IMG/VR virus record: IMGVR_UViG_3300031454_000238
Span: 1 to 44,370 of that record
Direction: 5' to 3' (one strand)
From: a virus
Taxonomy: Duplodnaviria; Caudoviricetes
DNA: 44,370 nucleotides
The position numbers were made by a program, and so were the translations under genes. Shown one piece after another: positions 2,171 to 24,938 of the stretch (the stretch's first letter is position 1; every line of letters starts with the position of its first letter). The notes beneath the pieces were generated by a model. That model searched no databases, had not been told where the DNA came from, and was given only the letters and a program-made list of their open reading frames with translations.

Positions 2171-5100
2171 TTAGCCGTTCGGCCTGCCCGCCGCCCGCAA
2201 TCGGGCGGAGATCGCGTCCGCAATGTCGCCACCGATCTCCCGCGACTGCGCACGCGATTGACCGGGAGCCGCCGTGACATTGACGTAAATGTTCGTCTCG
2301 CCGCCACCCTCGCCGCCGCCACGCTCCCGCAGGGCGTCGCGCACGACCGCACGCATCTGCGGCACGGGGCTGGTGATCTCGCCCTCGCGGTTGCCGGGGT
2401 TCTCGTTGCTGAGAATCAGCGCAGGCCCGTCACTCACGTAGGCACCATTCGCGGCGGGGTTGACGGTGTAGCCGAGCGGGGCGTTGAAGTACGAGGCGTT
2501 GCGCCAGCCTGTCTGTTCCGGTGCCACCGTTCCGTACACGCGCCCATCCCCGCCGCTGAACGCGACGTGACCGACGTTGCCGAGTTCGGGGTCGGTGTAG
2601 GGAAAGAACGTCACCGCCCCCTTCGGGCCGAGGCCGGGGGAAAGCGGCTGCTTTCGACTGTGGGTGAAGGCGTCCGGTTCGCGGGCGTACCGCTTGCCCG
2701 CCCCCGCCATCGCGTCCCCGATGAACTTCTCGCACCACAGATAGATGCCGCTCGTGCGGAACGCGGATTGCATGATCGCGTCGCCGTCGGGTGCGGTGCC
2801 GCCCGTGTTCGGCTTCGCATCGGCCATCCATCCGGCGTACTTCGGCTGCAAGCCCCGGATGATGCCGGGGTAGGCGGCCCCGCCGTTGTAGCGCAACAGG
2901 GCGGTGTCCCAGTTGCCGCCGAACTCGTCGTATTTGTTGCGCAGCAGGTTGAACCCGTAGTCGAGGGCCGCGCCATCGCCCGCCGCTGTCTGGATATAGT
3001 CCTGCATCGTGCCGCCGCCTGGTGCCGCGCTGCCGAGAAACGCGGAATGGTAGCGGCGGTCTATCTGTGTGAGGCCGAAGGCGTAGGGGTTGCCGTTCGG
3101 GTCGAGGTCGTATGCCGATTGGCGATACGCGCCGCTCCCGCTCTCCCGGTCAACGAGTGCCGCCGCGAGGTCGCGGGGGATGCGGTGCTTGTCGGCGTAC
3201 TGCGAGATAAGCGGGCGCAGGGCATCCATGCCCCCGCCCGCCGCGCCGCCCGCGCTGTTGCCCCCGGCGAAGGGCGACAGCAGGCCGCGCACGCCCTCCG
3301 TCGCGGTGCTCTTGATCTTCTCCGCAATCGCGGGGCCGATCTTCGACAGTACCCCCGGCAGTTCGGGCATCTTCAGCCCGCTGAGCGTCGTACCGAGCAT
3401 GTCCGTCGCCTTCGAGACGATGCTTTGCGCCCCGGTACCGACGCCGGAGAAGAAGCCACCGACCGCCGATTTCGTGGCATCCCACGCCGCGCCGATAGCG
3501 TCTCCCGGCCCCGCCCCGCGCCCGATGTTCGCCCCGTAGTTGCCGAGGCTCCCCGTCGCTGCGATGCCCGCCGCAAATTGTGCCGATGTGCTACCGGGGG
3601 GCGGGTTCGAGAGGATGCGCTCGGTTTCGGCGTTGTTATAGACCACACTGCCGGCGGGAAGATTGAGCATCATCGGGCCGGAAGCTAAGTACGTGCGGTC
3701 GCCCACGGTGTAGAGTTCGCGCCCCGCTTCCCCGATGAAGGCCGCACCACCGGGGAAGTTGCGCGTGCCTTCCGCCTCGTTGCGTGCGCCGCCCCCGCCC
3801 CCCGGTGCCGCCGTGCGCTTACCCACGGTGATGTTCGGCACGGGCCACGGCGCACCACCGAGGCTCGGATTGCCGAACAGCCCGCCGACCTCATTCAAGG
3901 CCCGCTTGACGCTATTCACGAACATGCCGATGCCGTCCAGCCCGGTTTGAATTGGGCCGAGGAAGGAGTTCACCGCCGCGAGCATGATGCCCTCGATGGC
4001 GTCCCCGAAGGACTTGAAGGGTGCCAGCAGGGCCGCACCGAGCGGGAGAAGGGCGGCGTTCAACGGAACGAGACTGAGAACAAACCGCCCGACCGCTGAA
4101 CTGGCAATCTCATCGAAGACGCGACCGACCTCTCTCACCGTCGGGATGATGTTCTTGTCCAGATAGCCCCATAGGTCGCGCAACTGTGGCAACAGGTCGC
4201 TGAAGATGAACGTCGCAATGCCCCGCAACGCCTCCAACCCCAGTCCCGCGAGGAACATCTGCCAACTCGTCCACGCCGGGAGCAGGGTGCCGCTGATGTA
4301 CGTGGCAAGGTCGCCCAATTTCGGCAGCATGTTCGTGTCGAGGTAGCCCCAGATATTCTGCATCGTCGGGATGAAGTCTTTCACCCAGAAGGCGTGCAGG
4401 TTGCGCCCCGCCGTTTCCGCCGCCGTGATGTTCTTGCCCGGATCGGCGGGGGCGTCATCGGTCAGACCACGCCAGAAATCCATAATCGCAGTCCGGGCGT
4501 TGCGCAGGGCGGTTCCCGCGTCATTGGCGATCTTCTCCACGCCCGTGTAGTAGCGACTCGGCTCCTTGCCCTGTAGTGCCTCCCAGAAGGCAGATACCAC
4601 GGGGGTGGCCTTCTCTATGGCATTCTGGATATTGCCGAACGCCTGCGTCCACACATTTTCGACTTTCAGCGCGTCGGTCGCGGCTTTCTTGGCGTCGGGG
4701 CCGCGCTGCCCCATCGTCTCCTGCTGGTAGGGATCGAGACCCTTCGGCCCCTGATATCCCGCAGCCGCCACGTCCGCAGCCTTTTTTGCCTGCTCAATCG
4801 CCTGCTTGTACCGCTCCGCCTCGGTGATGAGGTTTTGCCAGTACCGGGCCTCTTTCTCCAGCTCCGCCTGCCGCTGCTGCAAGGGCAACAGCGCGTCTTC
4901 CATCGCCCGCGTCAGTCGCTCCTGCTCGGCTTGCAGGGGCGCGAGGGTCGTGCGGCGGTGTTCGTCGTCTATCATTTTCGCCAGATTCAGGATCGCCGCC
5001 TCTTTGTCGAGGATATCGCTCTGTCGCTTGGCCTCGTCATTGATCGCGGCGATCTGATCCTGTGCGCCGCGCTTGCGCATCTCGACCGTGCGGCTCTCCG

Positions 5101-9581: not shown

Positions 9582-9650
9582 GGGCCAAGCGGCGCGACTC
9601 CGTTCACGAGAGGCGCGGCCCAAAGGCGGGGCAACTCGTGCCGGGAAGGG

Positions 9651-9752
9651 TTACTTCCCCTGTTGTTTGGGTGGATGCCGTCGTTCGATGGCTTCGCAGA
9701 TAAGCAAAAGCGCACGGCGCACGGCAAGCCATAATTCACGCTCGCCGTCCAA
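9651..9752 (-). CDS. 33-aa amphipathic peptide MDGERELWLAVRRALLLICEAIERRHPPKQQGK
   Basis: SD-like AAGGGGGTGA, TTG start, TAA stop; below the ORF-track cutoff. Confidence 0.5.
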   Translation of the reverse strand: MDGERELWLAVRRALLLICEAIERRHPPKQQGK

Positions 9753-9873
9753 GCGGCATCACCCCCTTTTCCTTGCTCTAACAGGCGAAATAGGGGATAA
9801 TGGAAGCGGACACACGAATGCCCCTTCACCGCTTGCGACGGCTAGGGGGCGCACACCGAAGGAGTAAGCTTCG

Positions 9874-10599
9874 ATGCCCGATCAGTCTACCACCATGACC
9901 ATTCCACTCACACAAGGCCAAGTCGCCCTCGTGGACGCCGAAGACTACGAGCGTGTCTCATACTTAAAGTGGTACGCCTCGCGCACCAAGACCAATTGCT
10001 ACGCGCTCCACAAGTACCGCGATGATGCGGGGAAGTGGACGGTTATCAGCCTGCACCGCTTTGTGATGGACGCACCGTCCGGTGTGCAGGTTGACCACGA
10101 GAACGGCAACGGCCTCGACTGCCAGAAGCACAATCTGCGTTTCGCTACGCACGCGCAGAACCGTCAGAATGTAGGCAGGCGGAGCAACAACACGAGCGGG
10201 TACAAGGGCGTGTCGTGGCACCCCGCCGTCAATCGCTGGATGGCAAGCATCAAAACGCCCGATGGACAATTTGCCATCGGCTATTTCGATGATCCCGTCC
10301 ATGCCGCCCGTGCCTACGATGCGAAAGCCCGCGAGTTGCACGGGGCGTTCGCCCGGTTGAACCTCCCGGACGCCCCGCCGCTTGCGACCCCCGTCGCAGT
10401 GTTGCGAGAAAGCAACACGTCGGGCTATCGCGGCGTCACCTTCCACAAGCAGCACGGAAAGTGGCTTGCGAAGATCAACCACGAGCAACGTTCGCGGCAT
10501 CTCGGCTTGTTCGACACCCCGGAAGTTGCCGCCCGCGCCTATGACGACGCAGCACGCGCACTCAAAGGCGCACGGGCGCGTCTCAATTTCCCCGACTAA
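9874..10599 (+). CDS. HNH homing endonuclease with two AP2 domains
   Basis: VDHENGNGLDCQKHNLR; two SGY(K/R)GV...W.A.I...G.FD.P..AARAYD..AR AP2 repeats; antisense to the late operon. Confidence 0.92.
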   Translation: MPDQSTTMTIPLTQGQVALVDAEDYERVSYLKWYASRTKTNCYALHKYRDDAGKWTVISLHRFVMDAPSGVQVDHENGNGLDCQKHNLRFATHAQNRQNVGRRSNNTSGYKGVSWHPAVNRWMASIKTPDGQFAIGYFDDPVHAARAYDAKARELHGAFARLNLPDAPPLATPVAVLRESNTSGYRGVTFHKQHGKWLAKINHEQRSRHLGLFDTPEVAARAYDDAARALKGARARLNFPD

Positions 10600-15858: not shown

Positions 15859-16049
15859 CGCGCCAGACTCCTCTCAGGGCATCGCGCCCCGGTAGTTAAA
15901 GATAGGGATCGGCACGAAGCGTCGCGCTCGTGCAGGGGAGGGGTTTTCCTTGCTACAACAAGGGAAACGCGGTACAATCAGGGCAGCGAAATGCCCCTCC
16001 ACTACGCGAATAGTGAGGGGCGCGACACCCGAACCGCTAGGAGGTTCCG

Positions 16050-16649
16050 ATGCATCCCGATGGTATCACGCTACCCTTTGAAGATGCCCGTTTTTGGGCA
16101 AAGGTTGACTTCAACGGCCCCGTTCCCGAACGCTACCCCGAATTAGGCCCGTGCTGGCTGTGGACAGCGGGAACATCCACGCAAGGGTACGGGCGGTTCA
16201 ACTGGAAGGGCCGAATGCAACGCTCCCATCGCGTCGTCTTCATGCGCACTTACCCCCAAACTCCTGAGCCAGAATGTGTTTGCCATCACTGTGACACTCC
16301 CGCCTGCCAGAACCCCGCGCACCTCTTCGCTGGCACGAGAGACGACAATAACAAAGACAAGGCGCACAAGGGTCGCGTCGTGACCCTATCTGGCGATGCG
16401 CATCACTCCCGTGCTCACCCCGAGAGACTAGTGCGGGGCGATGCGCATCATTCTCGTACTCACCCTGAGACACTAGCGCGAGGAGGGCGACACGGCAACG
16501 CCAAACTCACAGAGTCGCAAGTTTACGAGATTCGCCTTCGCTACTCGCTTTCCTTGTTGTCGCTGGCGATGATGGCGAAAGAATACGGTGTGAGCAAGGC
16601 TACAATTCAACGCATTGTGAGCCGAGCAGGGTGGCAACACGTCCCATAA
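16050..16649 (+). CDS. HNH homing endonuclease with C-terminal HTH
   Basis: RFWAKV...CWLWT...GYG...HR...VCHHCDTPACQNPAHL...N; GDAHHSR.HPE duplication; AKLTE...IR...YGVS. Confidence 0.92.
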   Translation: MHPDGITLPFEDARFWAKVDFNGPVPERYPELGPCWLWTAGTSTQGYGRFNWKGRMQRSHRVVFMRTYPQTPEPECVCHHCDTPACQNPAHLFAGTRDDNNKDKAHKGRVVTLSGDAHHSRAHPERLVRGDAHHSRTHPETLARGGRHGNAKLTESQVYEIRLRYSLSLLSLAMMAKEYGVSKATIQRIVSRAGWQHVP

Positions 16650-16653
16650 GCAA

Positions 16654-16740
16654 TGTCGTGACAGTCGCGCCGCCGGTGGCCCCGGTGTCCTGCTCGTGCA
16701 GGCGGAAGTGACGGTGCAAGGCACGGTGAAACAAGGGCAT
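16654..16740 (-). pseudogene. Displaced original 5' end of the scaffold gene
   Basis: SD AAGGAGG, MPLFHRALHRHFRLHEQDTGATGGATVTT; TVTT matches TITT of the current scaffold start; same leader hairpins. Confidence 0.6.
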
Positions 16741-16839: not shown

Positions 16840-17259
16840 TTAAGCAGGATGTGTGTAACTGAATGACGTAATCGCCACCGTCCCACCGAGTGCTATACTT
16901 ACGCTATTTAACTGCATATCACCGCCGCCGCCTGTGGCGGTGATCGTGCCTTCAAGGCGGCGTAGAGTAGTGGACACGCCGGTCGCGTCACCGGAGAGGC
17001 GCACGCGGAAGTACGCCGCCGTTCCCGTGGCGTCCGCGCTCGTGTCGGAGGCGATGGCCCCCGCCGTTGCGACCGCGCCGCTGACGGTGAACGAGGTCGC
17101 CGCGAGGGTGAGCGTGCCGAGCAGCGTTCCCGTTTGCGCAGCGTCGGGGCCGGGTGCGGTACCCGTGAAAATCTCGATTACCCCCGTCGTGTTGAACGCG
17201 GTGGAGAAGCCGCTGCTGAGGTTAAACGCCTTCAACGCCGTGCTGTGCGCAATCGTCAT
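16840..17259 (-). CDS. Small virion fibre-associated structural protein
   Basis: IFTGTAP...TGTLLGTLTL...ATGTAAYFR...GGGDMQLNSVSIALGGTVAITSF. Confidence 0.7.
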   Translation of the reverse strand: MTIAHSTALKAFNLSSGFSTAFNTTGVIEIFTGTAPGPDAAQTGTLLGTLTLAATSFTVSGAVATAGAIASDTSADATGTAAYFRVRLSGDATGVSTTLRRLEGTITATGGGGDMQLNSVSIALGGTVAITSFSYTHPA

Positions 17260-17871: not shown

Positions 17872-19983
17872 TTAGTCGTCGCCGCGTATCGTCGCCGTGC
17901 CCGCGTGCGCATTGCGCACGATTGCGATGCCCGCGTGCGCAATGCGCACCATTGCGATGCCCGCGTGCGCAATGCGCACGATTGCGATGCCGTTCGTGTG
18001 GACGTACAGCGGTACGAGGCCCGTGGCGGTGCCAGTCGCCGCGATTACTCGCAACCCCGGCAGCGCGGCGATGCCCCCCGTCGTGTAGCCCGTGTACGTG
18101 CCACCGAGTTGGACGATCATCGGGGCGCGGCGTACCCCCACGCTCCCCGTGACAGTGTTCGGCGGCGTGCGCGTACCGACAATACTGGCGAGGTACGCCG
18201 TTGCCTGCGCGGTAACGGTTCCCGTCACCGGGGGCGGGGTGTAGACGCCGCTCGCCGCCACCGCCGCCGATGCGCGTTGCGCCGCGACCGTCCCGGTTTC
18301 GTTCTGCGGGGTGTACGCCCCCGTCATGGAGGCGACACGAGCGGCAGGCGTCGCGGCGACCGCGCCCGTCACCCCCGGCGCGGCGACCGCCCCCGTGAGG
18401 CCCGCGACCGGGGCGGCAGGGGTGACGGCAATCGTGCCGCCCGCGTTCGCGGGTGCCGCGAACGTGCCGCCGCTTGCGGCTGTGCGCACCCCCGGTGTCG
18501 CCGCGACGGTGCCGCTCGTGGTTCCCGCCGCCGCGACGGTGCCGGATGCGGCAACGACCATCGCCGCCGGTGCCGCGCCCATCGTGCCGGAAGCAGCAGC
18601 GGGGGCCGTATGTGTCCCCGTGAGGCCCGCCACCCGCACCGCAGGCGTCGCCGTGATCGTGCCGCTCGTCGTGACCACCGCCGCCTGCGTCGCCGCGCCG
18701 GTCGCCGCCGAGGCCGAGGCCGGGGAACTCGCGAGCAACCGAGCGGGTGCCGCACCCTGCGTTGCCGACGCCGACGCCGCAGAGACGGACGCGGGGGTAG
18801 TCGCGAGGGACTGCGCGTTCGTCGCGGTCGCGGTGGGATTCGCCGCCCCCCCCGTGCCGATGCTGACCGCCCCCGTGCCTTGCAGGGCGGTGGAGAGCGA
18901 CCCTGACGCGGCGGTGGTAGACGCCGCCGCGCCCGTGAGGGATTGATCGCTCGCCGCCGCAACCTGCGCAAGGCTTGCCGCCGCAACCGATGCCGACGCC
19001 ACAGCAGCCGCGAGGGGCTGCGCGTTCGTCGTGGTGGTGGGATTCGCCGCCCCCCCCGTGCCGATGCTGATCGGTGCCGTGCCTTGCAGGGCGATGGCGA
19101 GGCTTGCGGACGCCGCCGATGCCGAGGAAGCCGCGCCCGTGAGCGGCTGCGCCGATACCCCGACCCGCGACAGGGACCCCGCCGCTATCGAAGCCGAGGT
19201 CGCAGCACCCGCGAGAGATTGCGCGGTCGTGGTCGCGGTGGGGGTTGCGGTACCCCCGGTGCCGATGCCGACCGCGCCCGCGCCTTGCAGGGCGGCGGTG
19301 AGGGAACCGACGGCGGCACTGGCGGAGGCCGCCGCACCCGCCAGCGATTGCTGGCCGATGGTCGCCTGTACGAGGCCCGCGACCACGGCGGTCGCGGATG
19401 CCGCCGCCGAAGCGAGCGACTGCTGCCCCGCCGCGCCCCGGCTGAGGGCGGCAACGGACGCCGACGCCGACGCCGACGCACCCGCGATGCTCTGCGCGTT
19501 ACCGACCGTCTGCGTCAGGGTCGCGCCGATGCCGGAGAAGGAATCCCCCGCCCCCGTGAGCAATCGGGGCGGGGCGGCGTCCCGCGTCGCCGTTCCCGCC
19601 GCCGCCGAGAGGGATGCCGCACTGCCCGCGAGGAGTCGAGGCGTTGCCGCCGCCTGCGCGATGCTTGCCGTCGCTGCGGAGGCCGATGCAGCCGCGCCCG
19701 CCAGCAACCGAGCGGTCGCGGCATTCTGCGTCGCCGTCGCCGTTGCCGCCGACACGCTGCCGCTCGTACTCGCGACCGATTGCCCCGCCACACCCTGCGT
19801 GAGCGTGCCCGTGGATGCGGTCGTCGTGCTACCGGCACCGGTCAGCGCGCCCGCGCCCGCGTCCCCGGCGGCCACATCGTCGGGCAACCCCTCCAAGAAC
19901 CGCGTCGTGTAAGGCTGGAACGCCGCGCCCCGCCCGCCGATACGCTGCGCCAGCATACCGGGGAGTCGCCTCGTGAATGGCAC
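17872..19983 (-). CDS. Ala/Thr/Gly-rich repetitive fibre-like protein
   Basis: 703 aa; LAGAAASAS repeats; three ALQGxGxxxIGTGG.A.PT repeats; C-terminal 10-aa repeats. Confidence 0.7.
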   Translation of the reverse strand: MPFTRRLPGMLAQRIGGRGAAFQPYTTRFLEGLPDDVAAGDAGAGALTGAGSTTTASTGTLTQGVAGQSVASTSGSVSAATATATQNAATARLLAGAAASASAATASIAQAAATPRLLAGSAASLSAAAGTATRDAAPPRLLTGAGDSFSGIGATLTQTVGNAQSIAGASASASASVAALSRGAAGQQSLASAAASATAVVAGLVQATIGQQSLAGAAASASAAVGSLTAALQGAGAVGIGTGGTATPTATTTAQSLAGAATSASIAAGSLSRVGVSAQPLTGAASSASAASASLAIALQGTAPISIGTGGAANPTTTTNAQPLAAAVASASVAAASLAQVAAASDQSLTGAAASTTAASGSLSTALQGTGAVSIGTGGAANPTATATNAQSLATTPASVSAASASATQGAAPARLLASSPASASAATGAATQAAVVTTSGTITATPAVRVAGLTGTHTAPAAASGTMGAAPAAMVVAASGTVAAAGTTSGTVAATPGVRTAASGGTFAAPANAGGTIAVTPAAPVAGLTGAVAAPGVTGAVAATPAARVASMTGAYTPQNETGTVAAQRASAAVAASGVYTPPPVTGTVTAQATAYLASIVGTRTPPNTVTGSVGVRRAPMIVQLGGTYTGYTTGGIAALPGLRVIAATGTATGLVPLYVHTNGIAIVRIAHAGIAMVRIAHAGIAIVRNAHAGTATIRGDD
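17898..17987. repeat. Three tandem 30-bp units, each with an internal inverted repeat
   Basis: TGCCCGCGTGCGCA(T/A)TGCGCAC(G/C)ATTGCGA x3. Confidence 0.9.
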
Positions 19984-20044: not shown

Positions 20045-20476
20045 CTATTCATCGTATACACAGTAAACGTCTGCAGGGGAGACGGCCGAGAGGTTCCACA
20101 GCACGAGGCTACCCCCGGCGGGGATCACGATACCGATTGGCCCGAACTCCCACCCGATGCCGCTGCCGATGCTGGCGGGAAAGCCGACCCGTCGCAGAAA
20201 GGCGGCGGGGGTCGTCGGCCCCGTCCCCCATGTGGTCGCGGCAACGCCCGTGCCCGCCACGTCGCCCACGTCTTCGGGGAGGCCCGTCGCGGTGCCGCCG
20301 GGGGTGACGCCGATGGCGGCGGGACGACCGAGGCCGAACGTCGAGGCGGTCGCGGCGGCAATCGTGATGCCGATTTCCAACAGGCGCACCCGGTCGGAGG
20401 CGGCGGCCCGTAACTCCCAACACGCCGCCCCCGTGGTTGCGACGCTCGTTCGTACCGCGACGGCATAGCGAGACAT
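20045..20476 (-). CDS. Probable virion structural protein
   Basis: SD AAGGAG; beta-rich 143 aa within the fibre cassette. Confidence 0.65.
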   Translation of the reverse strand: MSRYAVAVRTSVATTGAACWELRAAASDRVRLLEIGITIAAATASTFGLGRPAAIGVTPGGTATGLPEDVGDVAGTGVAATTWGTGPTTPAAFLRRVGFPASIGSGIGWEFGPIGIVIPAGGSLVLWNLSAVSPADVYCVYDE

Positions 20477-20491
20477 GCGTTGCTCCTTGCC

Positions 20492-20566
20492 CTAATAGCC
20501 ATCCGTGACCGCTTGGGCCAGTTCGTTGGCGTACGTGTTCGGGTACTGTCCGGCGTTGTTATTGAC
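20492..20566 (-). pseudogene. Displaced original 3' end of the GH5 gene 21177-22763
   Basis: VNNNAGQYPNTYANELAQAVTDGY*; last 10 aa identical to the GH5 C-terminus. Confidence 0.85.
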
Positions 20567-20674
20567 TTGTTTTCCCTTGCCACAGCAAGGAAAATCGGCT
20601 ATAATAGATGCACCCGCGCTGCTACTAACAGCCGGGTGCGTGTCACTCCCCGAACCTAGAAGGAGGTTCAGTTC

Positions 20675-21160
20675 ATGCCCCTCAATGGTACGAAAAACTG
20701 CCAAGCCTGTCGCCTCCCCTTTCCCCGTGAGGACTACGCCCAAAAGTGGCGAAACGAGAAGCCGAACGGACGCGAAGCCTACTGCCCATCGTGCATGGAA
20801 GAACTGCGAGAGCGGCGACCGATCAAGCGTGCCGCACCAACCCTTCCCTTTGAGGAACGGTTCTGGCGTCGCGTCGCACGTCCGTCCGATGCGCCCAACG
20901 TGTGTTGGGAGTGGCAGGGCGGGTCTACTATCGGCGGCTACGGCAATTTCGGCACAGGCGAGTGCATCTACCTCGCGCATCGCGTCGCATACGAACTCGC
21001 GGTTGGGCCAATCCCGCCCGGCCTTCTCGTGATGCATTCCTGCGACAACCCGCGCTGCTGCCGTCCGTCGCATCTTTCCGTCGGCACCTATGCCGACAAC
21101 ACTGCGGACATGATGGCCAAGGGACGCGGTAGCAAGGGGCCGCAAAAAGTCAGTCGGTGA
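20675..21160 (+). CDS. HNH homing endonuclease with N-terminal Zn-binding motif
   Basis: CQAC...CPSC; ERFW...CWEWQG...GYG...AHRVAY...VMHSCDNPRCCRPSHL...DN. Confidence 0.92.
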   Translation: MPLNGTKNCQACRLPFPREDYAQKWRNEKPNGREAYCPSCMEELRERRPIKRAAPTLPFEERFWRRVARPSDAPNVCWEWQGGSTIGGYGNFGTGECIYLAHRVAYELAVGPIPPGLLVMHSCDNPRCCRPSHLSVGTYADNTADMMAKGRGSKGPQKVSR

Positions 21161-21176
21161 ACGCCGCTGCCCCTTG

Positions 21177-22763
21177 CTAATAACCATCGGTCACGGCCTG
21201 CGCCAGTTCGGTTGCATATGAAGCGGTGTAAACCCCATCGTTTCCGGAAGTAGCATTCCAGTAATGATGCGCCTCGTAGACAATGTTCGTTGCGCTCACG
21301 AACGGCACCGGGTGGTTCGTGGCGAAGGTTTTGATATCGCCGTAGCGATACCCGCTCACCATGATCGGACGCGCATCGTCGACGCGAATCGCGTTCGCCG
21401 TGGTGTTGGCGATGCCCTCCCACACCTGCGATGCCGTCTTCCCGCCGCTGATGCTCCCTTGCTGTACGGTCCCCATCAGCGCGGTCACGCTCGTGCCGTT
21501 GCCGCCCCCCGCGTAAATCGTCGGCACGAGGTCCTGCACCGCCGCCAATTGCGCGGCGGTGAACGTCCCCTGCACGTCCGTCCACTGCCCCGCGACGAGC
21601 GGCACGCCCCCCTGTGTGGGGTTCTGATCCGCGAAGGCGGCGTTGTAGAACGCCCAATTGAAAGCGAAGTTCCCCACGGTGCCTGCGGGAAGGTAAACGG
21701 AAGCGCGGAGCGTCAAGCCGTTGGCCGACCAGTTGCGGGCGGTGTTCGCGCCCTCGCGCAGGCGATACCCGGTGTAATTTCCCGTGTACGTCCCGGTGAC
21801 CGCCAGCGTCGGTTTGCCGTCCGGTGCGAGCGTCGCGCTCGCGACCATCGCCGCGCCGCTGCCCTCGTAGTTCCACCCGGCGCGACCATTCGTGAAATCG
21901 TAGCGGGTTGTGTTGTTGGCGAACGTTCCCGGCTCCGGGTTGAGGTCGTGCGGCTCGTTCATGATGCCGTAGCCGAGCACAAAATCGCCCGCCGCGTGCC
22001 CGCGCACGAACGTGCCCATGCGCGTCCAGAAGTCCGCGAGGTTCGACGCGGTGGCACTCGTGAGCGGCACCCCGCCGCTGGTCTCGCTCGTATTGCCGAC
22101 GGGCGAGTAGCGACCGTAGTTGTGCAGATCGAGGATGATCTTGATGCCCTTCGCCTTCGCGTCGGCGAGCATCTGCCCCAACTCGGTCAGGCGCGTGGTG
22201 TCGAGGGCCGCGTTGAGCGTCGGCTGCACCCGCTCCCACATCATCGCCAGCCGGGCAAGTTGCACATTATTCGCGCTCAGGTAGTTCCACGAAGCGAGCT
22301 GCGTGGTCGTGAAGTACCGCGCCGGGTCGCGGTTCGCCCCGAACGCCGCCGCCCCGAACTCCCAGCCCGCGACGCCGACGCCGATGCGAGCACTCATGTA
22401 CTGGGCCGCCAACGTCGCCTCGGACGCGGAGACGGCGCGGTTGATCGGGTCGCCGCTGTTCAGGTTCGAGTGCAGCGCGAGGATATACGTACCCCACCCC
22501 TCGCCGCTGCTCCATTGCGTGCCGTAGTGGTTGGCGTTTCTGAGGGCGAGATAGTAGTTGTCGAGCAGGTTGTTCCAACTCGCCTGCTCGCTCCCCGCGT
22601 TGTTCGGGACGCCGAACTCGCCGACGTACCCCGTCGCACCGTACAGGGCGCAGTAGTCCGTGAACGCCGCCAACTCCGCGAGGGTGCGGCGCACCAGGGC
22701 GTCGGTGGGCTTCGGGGGGGGGATCGGCCTGGGTGATACCGATTTGCGGCGTCGGGTCGGCAT
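21177..22763 (-). CDS. Circularly permuted GH5 glycoside hydrolase with inserted beta-sandwich (CBM-like) domain
   Basis: GEFG and WSSG precede GVGVAG, WERVQP, ILDLHNYGRY, MNEPH, YEAHHY; ~170-aa insert after NEP. Confidence 0.85.
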   Translation of the reverse strand: MPTRRRKSVSPRPIPPPKPTDALVRRTLAELAAFTDYCALYGATGYVGEFGVPNNAGSEQASWNNLLDNYYLALRNANHYGTQWSSGEGWGTYILALHSNLNSGDPINRAVSASEATLAAQYMSARIGVGVAGWEFGAAAFGANRDPARYFTTTQLASWNYLSANNVQLARLAMMWERVQPTLNAALDTTRLTELGQMLADAKAKGIKIILDLHNYGRYSPVGNTSETSGGVPLTSATASNLADFWTRMGTFVRGHAAGDFVLGYGIMNEPHDLNPEPGTFANNTTRYDFTNGRAGWNYEGSGAAMVASATLAPDGKPTLAVTGTYTGNYTGYRLREGANTARNWSANGLTLRASVYLPAGTVGNFAFNWAFYNAAFADQNPTQGGVPLVAGQWTDVQGTFTAAQLAAVQDLVPTIYAGGGNGTSVTALMGTVQQGSISGGKTASQVWEGIANTTANAIRVDDARPIMVSGYRYGDIKTFATNHPVPFVSATNIVYEAHHYWNATSGNDGVYTASYATELAQAVTDGY

Positions 22764-23351: not shown

Positions 23352-24938
23352 CTAGAAGCCGTTCGCCACGGCATCGGACAATTCTTCGGCATAGGTGGCA
23401 CAAAAGTTACCAGATAACCCGCCCTCGCCGCCGCGACCGGCCCCCGGCGCGTTGAACGGCGAGTAGTTCGGGTAGAAGTGCAGGCCGTAGTAGTCGCAGT
23501 TCGGCGCGAAGTCGGTGGTGTGACTCTGCATGAACGATTCGAGACCGCAGTAGAACCACGCCGGGGCGATCACGGGCGGGCCGGTGGGATGCGCGGTCTT
23601 CACGGCATTGACCACGGTGTTGCAGATGCTCTCCCAGTCGGCGGCACTCCCCGCCTTGACGGGCTCGTTCATCAGGTCAAGCGCGAAGATCGTGCCCTTG
23701 CGGAGTGCGTCGAGCGCAAGCCACGTGTTCATCCGCACCCAGAAATCGCTCAGGTACCCGGCGGTGCCGGGCGTCAGGGCCACAATCGCGTTGTTCACGG
23801 TGTAGCGACCGTAGTTGTGGTTGTCGAGGATCACCTTGATCCCGTGGTTGCGGGCGTAGGTGAGGATCGTGTCGAGTTGCGCGAGGCGGGCGGTGTCCAG
23901 CGGGCCGTTGATCGTCGGCTGCATCCGTTTCCACATCATCGGCAGGCGGATCAGTTTGACGCCCTTCCCCTCCAGATAGGCCATGTCCGCGTCGGTGGCG
24001 AACCACCCTTCCGCGCCATACGACGGGGAAGGTTCCTCTGGGGAATCCTGATCCATGATGTACTCGAACCCGGCGAGGTTGACGCCGATCCGGGTGGACA
24101 TGCGCGGCGTCAGCACGGGGCCGGGGGGGTACTCGGTGTTGATGCCCGTCCCGGCAGCGTTGTTGCCCCACGCCACCACGGGGTCAAGTTTGGGGCTAGG
24201 GGTAGCGTAGTAGTCGCTCGATGCGCGACCCGCCTGCCAATAGGTCGCCGTCGCCGTGGGGATGGCGGCGAGTTTGTCGAGATAGCGGTCGAGCGCGTTG
24301 TTCCAGAGCGGCTGCTCGGAGGCGACGTGGTTCGGCCCGCGATGGGGGATACCCAACTCGCCGATGAACATCTTCTTGCCCCACCCCGTGATCCGGGTGT
24401 TCGCGGCGTCGAGGCGCGACCGTATCCGCCGCGTGTAGGCGTCGTCGGTTGCGGCGGCGGGCGCGACCGGAGCGGCAGCGGTACCCGCCGCCCCGATGAT
24501 GAGGCTCGCCGCGCCCACCGCGAAGGAGACGGTGATACCCTGTCCCACGTCGAGGGCGGGGGCGAAATCCACGTAGGCGAGGATGTTCCCGCCCGTCGCG
24601 GCATCGGCGTAGAAGAGGCCGCGTACCGTACCCCACGCGGCGGCGGCGGCACCGAACGAGAACACCGTGCCGTTCGCTTTGATCGCCCCGCTGTTCGCAG
24701 GCGTCGCTGCGGCACTGGCGGCGGCGGCGGGCCAGTTACCCGGCGTGTTCGGCACGGCGATGCGGGCATAGCCGCTGCCGCTCAACTCCGTGAACGTCCC
24801 CGCCGCCTTCGCCGCCGTCACGCCCGAAGCGTCGGTGTAGAGGCCGACGTAGAGGGTAGCCGGGGGCGCGATGTTCACGCCACCCCACCAGAAATCGAGG
24901 GATTTCGTCGCCGCATAGAGCGTGAGTTGCGATCCCAT
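23352..24938 (-). CDS. Fibre-type N-terminal domain fused to a circularly permuted GH5
   Basis: TLYVGLYT...ELSGSGYARIAV...YADAATGGNIL; then IGELG, YWQAG, GVNLAGFE, IRLPMMWKRMQP, ILDNHNYGRY, LMNEP, LHFY. Confidence 0.85.
   Translation of the reverse strand: MGSQLTLYAATKSLDFWWGGVNIAPPATLYVGLYTDASGVTAAKAAGTFTELSGSGYARIAVPNTPGNWPAAAASAAATPANSGAIKANGTVFSFGAAAAAWGTVRGLFYADAATGGNILAYVDFAPALDVGQGITVSFAVGAASLIIGAAGTAAAPVAPAAATDDAYTRRIRSRLDAANTRITGWGKKMFIGELGIPHRGPNHVASEQPLWNNALDRYLDKLAAIPTATATYWQAGRASSDYYATPSPKLDPVVAWGNNAAGTGINTEYPPGPVLTPRMSTRIGVNLAGFEYIMDQDSPEEPSPSYGAEGWFATDADMAYLEGKGVKLIRLPMMWKRMQPTINGPLDTARLAQLDTILTYARNHGIKVILDNHNYGRYTVNNAIVALTPGTAGYLSDFWVRMNTWLALDALRKGTIFALDLMNEPVKAGSAADWESICNTVVNAVKTAHPTGPPVIAPAWFYCGLESFMQSHTTDFAPNCDYYGLHFYPNYSPFNAPGAGRGGEGGLSGNFCATYAEELSDAVANGF

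What the first reader, a model, noticed from the sequence alone, without database searches (positions are those of the whole stretch)
20492..21290. HNH gene inserted in the GH5 3' end, carrying a recoded replacement C-terminus
Seen: the GH5 ends ...GNDGVYTASYATELAQAVTDGY* (21177). On the far side of the antisense HNH gene is a start-less copy ...NNAGQYPNTYANELAQAVTDGY* (20492-20566). The last 10 codons give identical residues but differ at 6 third positions, all synonymous. The orphan has GC-ending codons like the gene body, while the in-frame copy has A/T-ending ones (GCT ACT, GTT, GCT TCA TAT GCA). Inference: the element invaded the CDS and repaired it without splicing, using a cleavage-resistant terminus. 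Comparable terminus-replacing endonuclease elements are known in fungal mitochondria; I do not know them as a recurring system in phage structural genes.
Basis: partly seen in the sequence, partly recalled or inferred. Interest (0 to 1): 0.88.

Follow-up and report, generated by a model that had tools for sequence, protein, structure and literature searches.

The report
Nuclease cassette swaps glucanase gene end
In this phage a nuclease gene with its own promoter sits backwards between two versions of the last 23 codons of a sugar-cutting enzyme gene; it likely invaded the gene's end, with a substitute end from a related phage keeping the enzyme whole and the original end left stranded, a trick described mainly in fungal mitochondria.

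Summary
Observation confirmed. An antisense HNH gene (20675-21160) with a near-consensus promoter and a conserved leader hairpin lies between two versions of the last 23 codons of a circularly permuted GH5 gene. The copies differ mostly at third codon positions (15 of 25 changes), so both evolved as working gene ends: diverged alleles, not a decaying duplicate. The attached end has atypical codons (codons 499-517); the stranded end is host-like, abuts the next gene, and the likeness runs into the post-stop spacer, favouring same-locus alleles over a deleted paralogue. Best reading: a splicing-free, terminus-replacing homing-type insertion, like fungal mitochondrial mORFs. Not shown: an empty allele (none found), cleavage, or resistance. 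The HNH lacks the roughly 50-residue C-terminal part of most relatives, so later repair or decay is a real rival. The trait is rare in this nuclease family: 0 of 80 loci had a 3' duplication; one other phage shows a mirror 5' case. This scan's earlier, unchecked notes report the same class on other phage DNA; nine literature searches showed no phage description. New variant of a known kind.

The parts
21177..22763 (-). Circularly permuted GH5 glycoside hydrolase, 528 aa, with an inserted domain at about residues 275-440; the invaded gene
   Evidence: Pfam PF00150 E=1e-18; E49 and E270 invariant in the alignment; GH5 endoglucanase structures matched; unpermuted homologues continue from this C-terminal helix into the helix found here at the N-terminus
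21177..21269 (-). Attached (inferred replacement) end: codons 499-528 and stop; atypical codon tract at codons 499-517 (21213-21269)
   Evidence: change-point LLR 14.5 at codon 499; 20 of 21 other genes at most 6.2; predicted helix 516-525
21130..21179 (.). Inverted repeat with 11-bp perfect arms joining the HNH 3' end to the GH5 stop; one arm resembles the spacer behind the stranded stop
   Evidence: not a canonical terminator
20675..21160 (+). HNH endonuclease, 161 aa: N-terminal CxxC..CxxC finger, HNH_3 core with H121 and N142; only 19 residues after N142
   Evidence: Pfam PF13392 E=4e-14; PHROG 1872; motif; tail-length comparison
20652..20669 (+). Predicted hairpin that holds the HNH ribosome-binding site
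   Evidence: fold of 20560-20680, z=-4.05, 0 of 200 shuffles as stable
20610..20639 (+). Leader hairpin shared with HNH cassettes in this and other genomes
   Evidence: 12 hand-picked leaders: 9 of 10 predicted pairs show two-sided changes; no Rfam match
20570..20605 (+). Sigma-70-like promoter (11 of 12, 20577-20605) inside a palindrome (20570-20594); marks the cassette's end next to the stranded copy
   Evidence: 1 found, 0.3 expected; shared by all three antisense HNH cassettes of the window
20492..20563 (-). Stranded (inferred original) GH5 end: 23 codons and stop, host-like codon use, 15 bases before the next gene's start
20045..20476 (-). Next gene of the operon, 143 aa, no family match

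Best explanation
An antisense promoter-leader-HNH cassette sits between two diverged versions of the GH5 gene's end; it likely entered by nuclease-triggered recombination, bringing a substitute end from a related phage that would keep the enzyme whole without splicing and is predicted to escape cleavage, and likely stranding the original end downstream. Shown: the anatomy, the cassette's boundaries and promoter-like signals, selection on both copies as coding sequence, the codon shift. Inferred: in a donor phage the cassette lay just behind the GH5 stop, as relatives lie behind other genes; a nick or break near codons 499-505 of the recipient was repaired with homology on the GH5 side and an illegitimate joint on the promoter side; the stranded end now supplies the second homology arm for further homing into empty alleles. 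Untested: cleavage, target site, allele discrimination, present activity of the shortened HNH.
For: Differences between the copies by codon position 5/5/15 over 23 codons (p=0.006 against even spread) and 0/1/8 over the last 14 (p=0.001): both ends were under purifying selection while they diverged. Codon shift only in the attached copy (LLR +6.0 against -4.3), centred on the junction just behind the conserved H-x-Y motif. Likeness continues into the post-stop spacer (10 of 12 bases; 0 of 27 other gene ends reach that score against the stranded spacer, though one reaches 17 of 18 against the attached spacer), and the two copies are closer (33 of 42 bases) than either is to the window's other GH5 (26, 28 of 42). 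The stranded copy begins one to three codons behind W502 and 4-7 bases from the cassette's palindrome. It is closer than the attached copy to 72 of 103 and 38 of 62 family ends. A 151-base, depth-2 contig was laid on the stranded copy rather than the attached one and runs on into a W-containing GH5 motif without a cassette. Same-family cassettes are mobile: present in L109, absent in L100/L101 at 77-80% DNA identity, same leader on two different HNH genes in L099. A mirror 5' case in L051/L049 (differences 4/4/10). The same layout is described for fungal mORFs (PMC3630166, passages).
Against: No empty allele of this locus was found; best homologues are 39-44% identical. The HNH ends 19 residues after its catalytic Asn, while 50 of 57 distinct homologues carry more than 50 and four full-length phage homologues are longer: it may be truncated or dead, and the cut coincides with the junction to the new tail. 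0 of 80 and 0 of 26 homologous loci show a 3' duplication; related cassettes are intergenic. Loop spacing does not decide which copy is original: 143 of 155 and 84 of 113 family ends have 7 residues between W and Y, the attached end 9, but the depth-2 contig and 3 of 113 proteins also have 9. The attached end is closer in 28 of 103 and 21 of 62 comparisons. Another gene (16840-17259) has an even stronger codon shift with no stranded copy seen.
Confidence: 0.6

Rival explanations
1. Insertion first, repair later: the cassette broke the gene near codon 503-505, and a later recombination with another phage's GH5 allele restored the end, clipping the HNH C-terminus in the process. The end is then a host suppressor, not cargo of a homing element, and the HNH may be a fossil.
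For: HNH homology stops at the base of the 21130-21179 hairpin and the C-terminal part of most relatives is missing; 3' duplications are absent from 106 other loci.
Against: Needs a surviving intermediate with a broken gene and a second rare event; convergent junctions of related cassettes abut the upstream stop just as here; catalytic motif, finger and promoter remain intact.
Confidence: 0.2
2. The stranded copy is the remnant of a third, recently duplicated GH5 paralogue that was deleted when the cassette arrived in an intergenic spot.
For: The window already has tandem GH5 paralogues that end in a similar helix; related cassettes are intergenic and replace local DNA.
Against: Does not explain the codon shift in the intact gene exactly where the remnant starts, nor the shared post-stop spacer; the known paralogue's end and spacer are much less alike.
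Confidence: 0.12
3. Target-site duplication at insertion followed by decay of one copy.
For: Direct repeat flanks the cassette (family D11).
Against: Neutral decay would spread changes over all codon positions; observed 0/1/8 and 5/5/15; the odd codons are in the used copy, not the spare one.
Confidence: 0.04
4. The insert is removed or read through (intron, or a ShiLan-like open frame), so that the stranded end is still translated.
For: The stranded copy's frame is open for 232 codons across the whole cassette.
Against: That frame is out of phase with GH5, which stops on its own; it is the in-register antisense frame of the HNH, open in GC-rich genes (0-5 blocking codons in eight genes), and the promoter part is open in 18% of shuffles; no Rfam intron match.
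Confidence: 0.04

Closest known systems
Mobile endonuclease ORFs (mORFs) that form gene hybrids in fungal mitochondria: Allomyces macrogynus atp6; Glomus sp. atp6, atp9, cox2, nad3 (PMC3630166, passages read); partial C-terminal duplications in Endoconidiophora (PMC6279837, passages)
   Same: Gene body, foreign in-frame C-terminus, endonuclease ORF, displaced native C-terminus; differences mostly synonymous; no splicing needed.
   Different: Phage, not mitochondrion; HNH, not LAGLIDADG or GIY-YIG; antisense with its own promoter and leader hairpin; accessory target gene; native origin and mobility were shown there with relatives and biochemistry, not here.
Free-standing phage homing endonucleases, intronless homing: T4 seg and mob genes (PMC2988022, passages and section 16); Skunavirus HNH genes (PMC12724721, passages); ICP1 HEGs (PMC10448857, passages)
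   Same: HNH gene outside any intron; resistance by a co-converted donor allele; hairpin over the ribosome-binding site; several such genes in one morphogenesis region.
   Different: Those are described as intergenic, with cleavage sites far from the gene; the word 'duplicat' had 0 occurrences in the T4 review and the Skunavirus paper; here a displaced terminus remains.
ShiLan domain, hidden out-of-frame HNH in actinophage methylases (PMC11855218, abstract and outline)
   Same: HNH inside a phage coding sequence with no splicing element.
   Different: There the insert is open in the host frame and nothing is duplicated; here the host gene stops before the cassette.
Prophages that integrate in a gene's 3' end and supply a replacement, such as e14 and phage 21 at E. 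coli icd (recalled; search gave nothing relevant)
   Same: Replacement 3' end with synonymous differences, original end stranded.
   Different: Integrase and att-site driven, whole prophage; here a 0.7-kb nuclease cassette.

Membership tests
mORF-type terminus-replacing endonuclease element | Two copies of the gene's C-terminal segment flank an endonuclease ORF | tested here: met
mORF-type terminus-replacing endonuclease element | The inserted copy is in frame and completes the host gene | tested here: met
   528-aa ORF ends like family members; predicted terminal helix
mORF-type terminus-replacing endonuclease element | The displaced copy matches the empty allele of close relatives; the inserted copy is foreign | tested here: inconclusive
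   no empty allele found; codon use and family similarity lean this way; one depth-2 contig
mORF-type terminus-replacing endonuclease element | The endonuclease cleaves the empty allele and not the occupied one | not testable with these tools
   needs a nicking assay
Free-standing HNH homing endonuclease | Intact HNH catalytic motif | tested here: met
   H121 to N142, spacing 21, as for I-HmuI H75/N96 cited in PMC12724721
Free-standing HNH homing endonuclease | DNA-binding domain joined to the nuclease | tested here: inconclusive
   N-terminal CxxC..CxxC finger present (role recalled); C-terminal part of 50 of 57 homologues absent
Free-standing HNH homing endonuclease | Patchy presence at a locus among related phages | tested here: inconclusive
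   shown for the relative in L109 against L100/L101, not for this locus
Free-standing HNH homing endonuclease | Biased inheritance in mixed infection | not testable with these tools
   no cultured phage or host
Group I or II intron with ORF | Ribozyme core and splice junctions | tested here: not met
   no Rfam match at gathering score in the window or at E<=1 in 20400-21400
ShiLan-type hidden HNH insertion | Insert open in the host gene's frame | tested here: not met
   GH5 stops at 21177; the open frame is shifted by one base

The most novel reading that the evidence does not exclude
A family of self-contained cassettes (promoter, uncatalogued conserved leader hairpin, HNH) in phages of soil and rock bacteria homes into coding sequence without any splicing by carrying either the 3' or the 5' end of its target, and so acts as a vehicle that swaps gene termini between phage lineages; here it has exchanged the substrate-side loop and last helix of a virion-block glycoside hydrolase.
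Probability: 0.3. Interest if true: 0.72.

Novelty: new variant of a known kind. Interest (0 to 1): 0.5.

Why it matters
Phage homing endonucleases are taken to survive inside genes only through introns, inteins or gene splitting, and otherwise to sit between genes. A 0.7-kb cassette that keeps its target whole by allele-end replacement would be a further route, with a cleavage site that can be predicted from the two ends and tested directly. It would also explain chimeric gene ends and stranded fragments that annotation misses. The value of this single case is limited by the missing empty allele and the shortened nuclease.

Tried and rejected
Empty-allele hunts that found no close relative: GH5 and the 143-aa neighbour in viral contigs, GH5 alignment in viral, metagenome (53 of 64 parts scanned) and genome (60 of 64 parts) collections, protein searches, 192 genomes of one order; of the 171 GH5 loci only L092 had a weak HNH match, about 3 kb away. 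69 capsid-related loci held no GH5 or 143-aa homologue. Sequencing runs: one DNA holder, possibly the source; no RNA holder listed; no joint across the cassette in its contigs, which shows nothing about absence. Idea that the second HNH (16050-16649) replaced the scaffold gene's 5' end: not supported; two close scaffold homologues start as here and the flanks align no better than background (34.5 against a median of 33.5). The window's exact promoter palindrome was not found in 321 loci. Flexible flank scan: its null reached 122 (99th percentile 68), so scores alone do not decide; L005 (78) and L037 (72) were set aside as long low-complexity alignments. No PDB sequence match for the HNH. The AlphaFold model is weak overall (pLDDT 62.7; loop 504-509 under 50), so no fold search was run. 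Literature searches gave 0 papers, 89 nothing relevant.

Full report
Context. The window is a temperate tailed phage: terminase, scaffold, capsid, tape measure and integrase genes are recognised, with the morphogenesis genes on the minus strand. Three nuclease genes lie on the plus strand inside this operon: HNH-AP2 at 9874-10599, HNH at 16050-16649 and HNH at 20675-21160. The host is unknown; capsid homologues at 40-45% identity occur in 4 of 192 genomes of the order of a Thermomicrobiales genome, a weak hint only.

Observation. The GH5 gene 21177-22763 ends 17 bases from the HNH stop; on the far side of the HNH, 685 bases on, a second copy of its last 23 codons ends 15 bases before the next gene. 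The last 10 sense codons encode the same residues with 6 synonymous third-position differences. Among 83 HNH flank pairs tested for stop-anchored peptide repeats this one scored 62, the next 25. The copy formally ends a 231-codon antisense frame that is best read as a shadow of the HNH.

The two ends are alleles, not a decaying duplicate. Differences fall 5/5/15 on codon positions over 23 codons and 0/1/8 over the last 14 (p=0.006 and 0.001 against an even spread). Both kinds of end occur in natural homologues of the same domain layout. The attached end departs from host codon use (12 of 25 G/C-ending against 422 of 480 in the body, p=4e-6; change point at codon 499, LLR 14.5, exceeded by 1 of 21 other genes), the stranded end does not; the direct contrast between the two ends is not significant (p=0.08). 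The likeness continues 10 of 12 bases into the spacer behind the stops, a score that 0 of 27 other gene ends reach against the stranded spacer, while the window's other GH5 has an unrelated spacer and a more distant end. This points to two alleles of one locus. The stranded end is closer than the attached end to 72 of 103 and 38 of 62 family segments; the attached end is closer in 28 and 21. Most family ends have 7 residues between the W of the H-H-Y-W motif and the next conserved Y (143 of 155, a count that includes the window's own protein; 84 of 113), the attached end 9; but a 151-base contig of depth 2, laid on the stranded copy with 10 differing letters, also has 9 and runs into that W with no cassette. 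The junction is therefore placed only to codons 503-505.

The target. The GH5 is circularly permuted, as are its 15 best hits; unpermuted homologues read on from the terminal helix into the helix that here starts the protein. E49 and E270 are invariant; their roles as nucleophile and acid/base are recalled GH5 knowledge. In the model the junction follows strand 494-499 and precedes a confident helix 516-525, so the end is likely needed. That the protein is part of the virion is inferred from its neighbours, not shown.

The cassette. A sigma-70-like promoter (11 of 12) lies in a palindrome whose edge is 4-7 bases from the stranded copy; a leader hairpin and a hairpin over the ribosome-binding site follow (z=-4.05). 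The three window cassettes share this layout. Twelve leaders that I picked by eye from the window and nine loci fold alike, with two-sided changes in 9 of 10 pairs; relatedness and hand-picking were not controlled, and Rfam has no match. Relatives are mobile and mostly intergenic: L109 has one behind its capsid gene, L100 and L101 lack it. The HNH keeps its catalytic motif but has 19 residues after N142, whereas 50 of 57 distinct homologues have more than 50 and 5 have 25 or fewer; four named phage homologues are longer too. Its last codons lie in an inverted repeat with the GH5 stop.

How general. 0 of 80 viral loci and 0 of 26 further loci with flanks show a duplicated 3' end. In a flexible scan of 75 distinct elements one other compact case appeared: in L051 and the near-identical L049 a 48%-identical HNH lies between a stranded gene start and a replacement start, differences 4/4/10 by codon position; a distant uninterrupted homologue (L330, 51%) shares one motif residue with the stranded start. 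This scan's earlier notes describe the same class in five other genomes; they are unchecked and I did not test them. None lies on this genome or matches this HNH.

Mechanism. Most likely (0.6) a donor phage carried the cassette just behind its GH5 stop; a nick or break in the recipient's gene end was repaired using GH5 homology on one side and an illegitimate joint on the other, which left the donor's end attached and the recipient's end stranded, now available as the second homology arm. The divergence concentrated at codons 499-517 would make the occupied allele a poor substrate. These steps are inferred. The main rival (0.2) is insertion followed by a host repair that clipped the HNH; a deleted paralogue (0.12), duplication with decay (0.04) and splicing or read-through (0.04) fit less well.

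Known systems. The layout is that of fungal mitochondrial mORF gene hybrids (PMC3630166, passages; PMC6279837, passages). Phage free-standing homing endonucleases gain immunity from donor alleles but are described as intergenic (PMC2988022, passages and section 16; PMC12724721 and PMC10448857, passages). ShiLan insertions are open in the host frame (PMC11855218, abstract and outline). Nine full-text searches showed no description of terminus replacement by a phage endonuclease; the library lacks most subscription journals, I saw most hits as listings only and read no supplements, so this is not proof of absence. It works like an mORF; membership is unproven because the empty-allele and cleavage tests are open.

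Verdict. Real feature, new variant of a known kind, already noted elsewhere by this scan. Interest 0.5.

Noticed in passing
window 9767-9876, 15944-16052, 20570-20677; L099, L109, L127, L342-L344, L348, L350, L362: HNH cassettes share a -10 box, a covarying leader hairpin and a short conserved motif before the ribosome-binding site; no Rfam family. In L099 two different HNH genes carry an identical leader and first codons.
   Followed up: partly
L051:2806-2868 and 3498-3785; L049: Mirror case: same-strand HNH between a stranded start and a diverged replacement start of a small zinc-finger gene.
   Followed up: partly
window 16840-17259: The last 43 codons of this virion-protein gene, about 190 bases from the second HNH, show the strongest codon shift in the window (LLR 17.6) with no stranded copy seen; possibly a co-converted target allele.
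   Followed up: no
window 16600-16740 (-): Short ORF with a strong ribosome-binding site whose start resembles leaders of some scaffold homologues, running into the second HNH; a repeated 9-base motif lies on both sides of that cassette. 5' replacement of the scaffold gene was not supported.
   Followed up: partly
window 21177-22763 and 23352-24938: Two circularly permuted GH5 genes in the virion gene block; the second is fused to a Gp80-like N-terminal domain, the first holds an inserted domain of about 165 residues.
   Followed up: partly
window 10596-10599: The HNH-AP2 stop overlaps the stop of the convergent upstream gene; no duplicated end found.
   Followed up: partly
window 9650-9750 (-): A 33-codon hydrophobic and basic ORF with a possible TTG start between the HNH-AP2 promoter and the tail tube gene.
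   Followed up: no
window 17872-19983: 703-aa Ala/Thr/Gly-rich repeat protein with 24- and 68-residue repeats and no family match.
   Followed up: no
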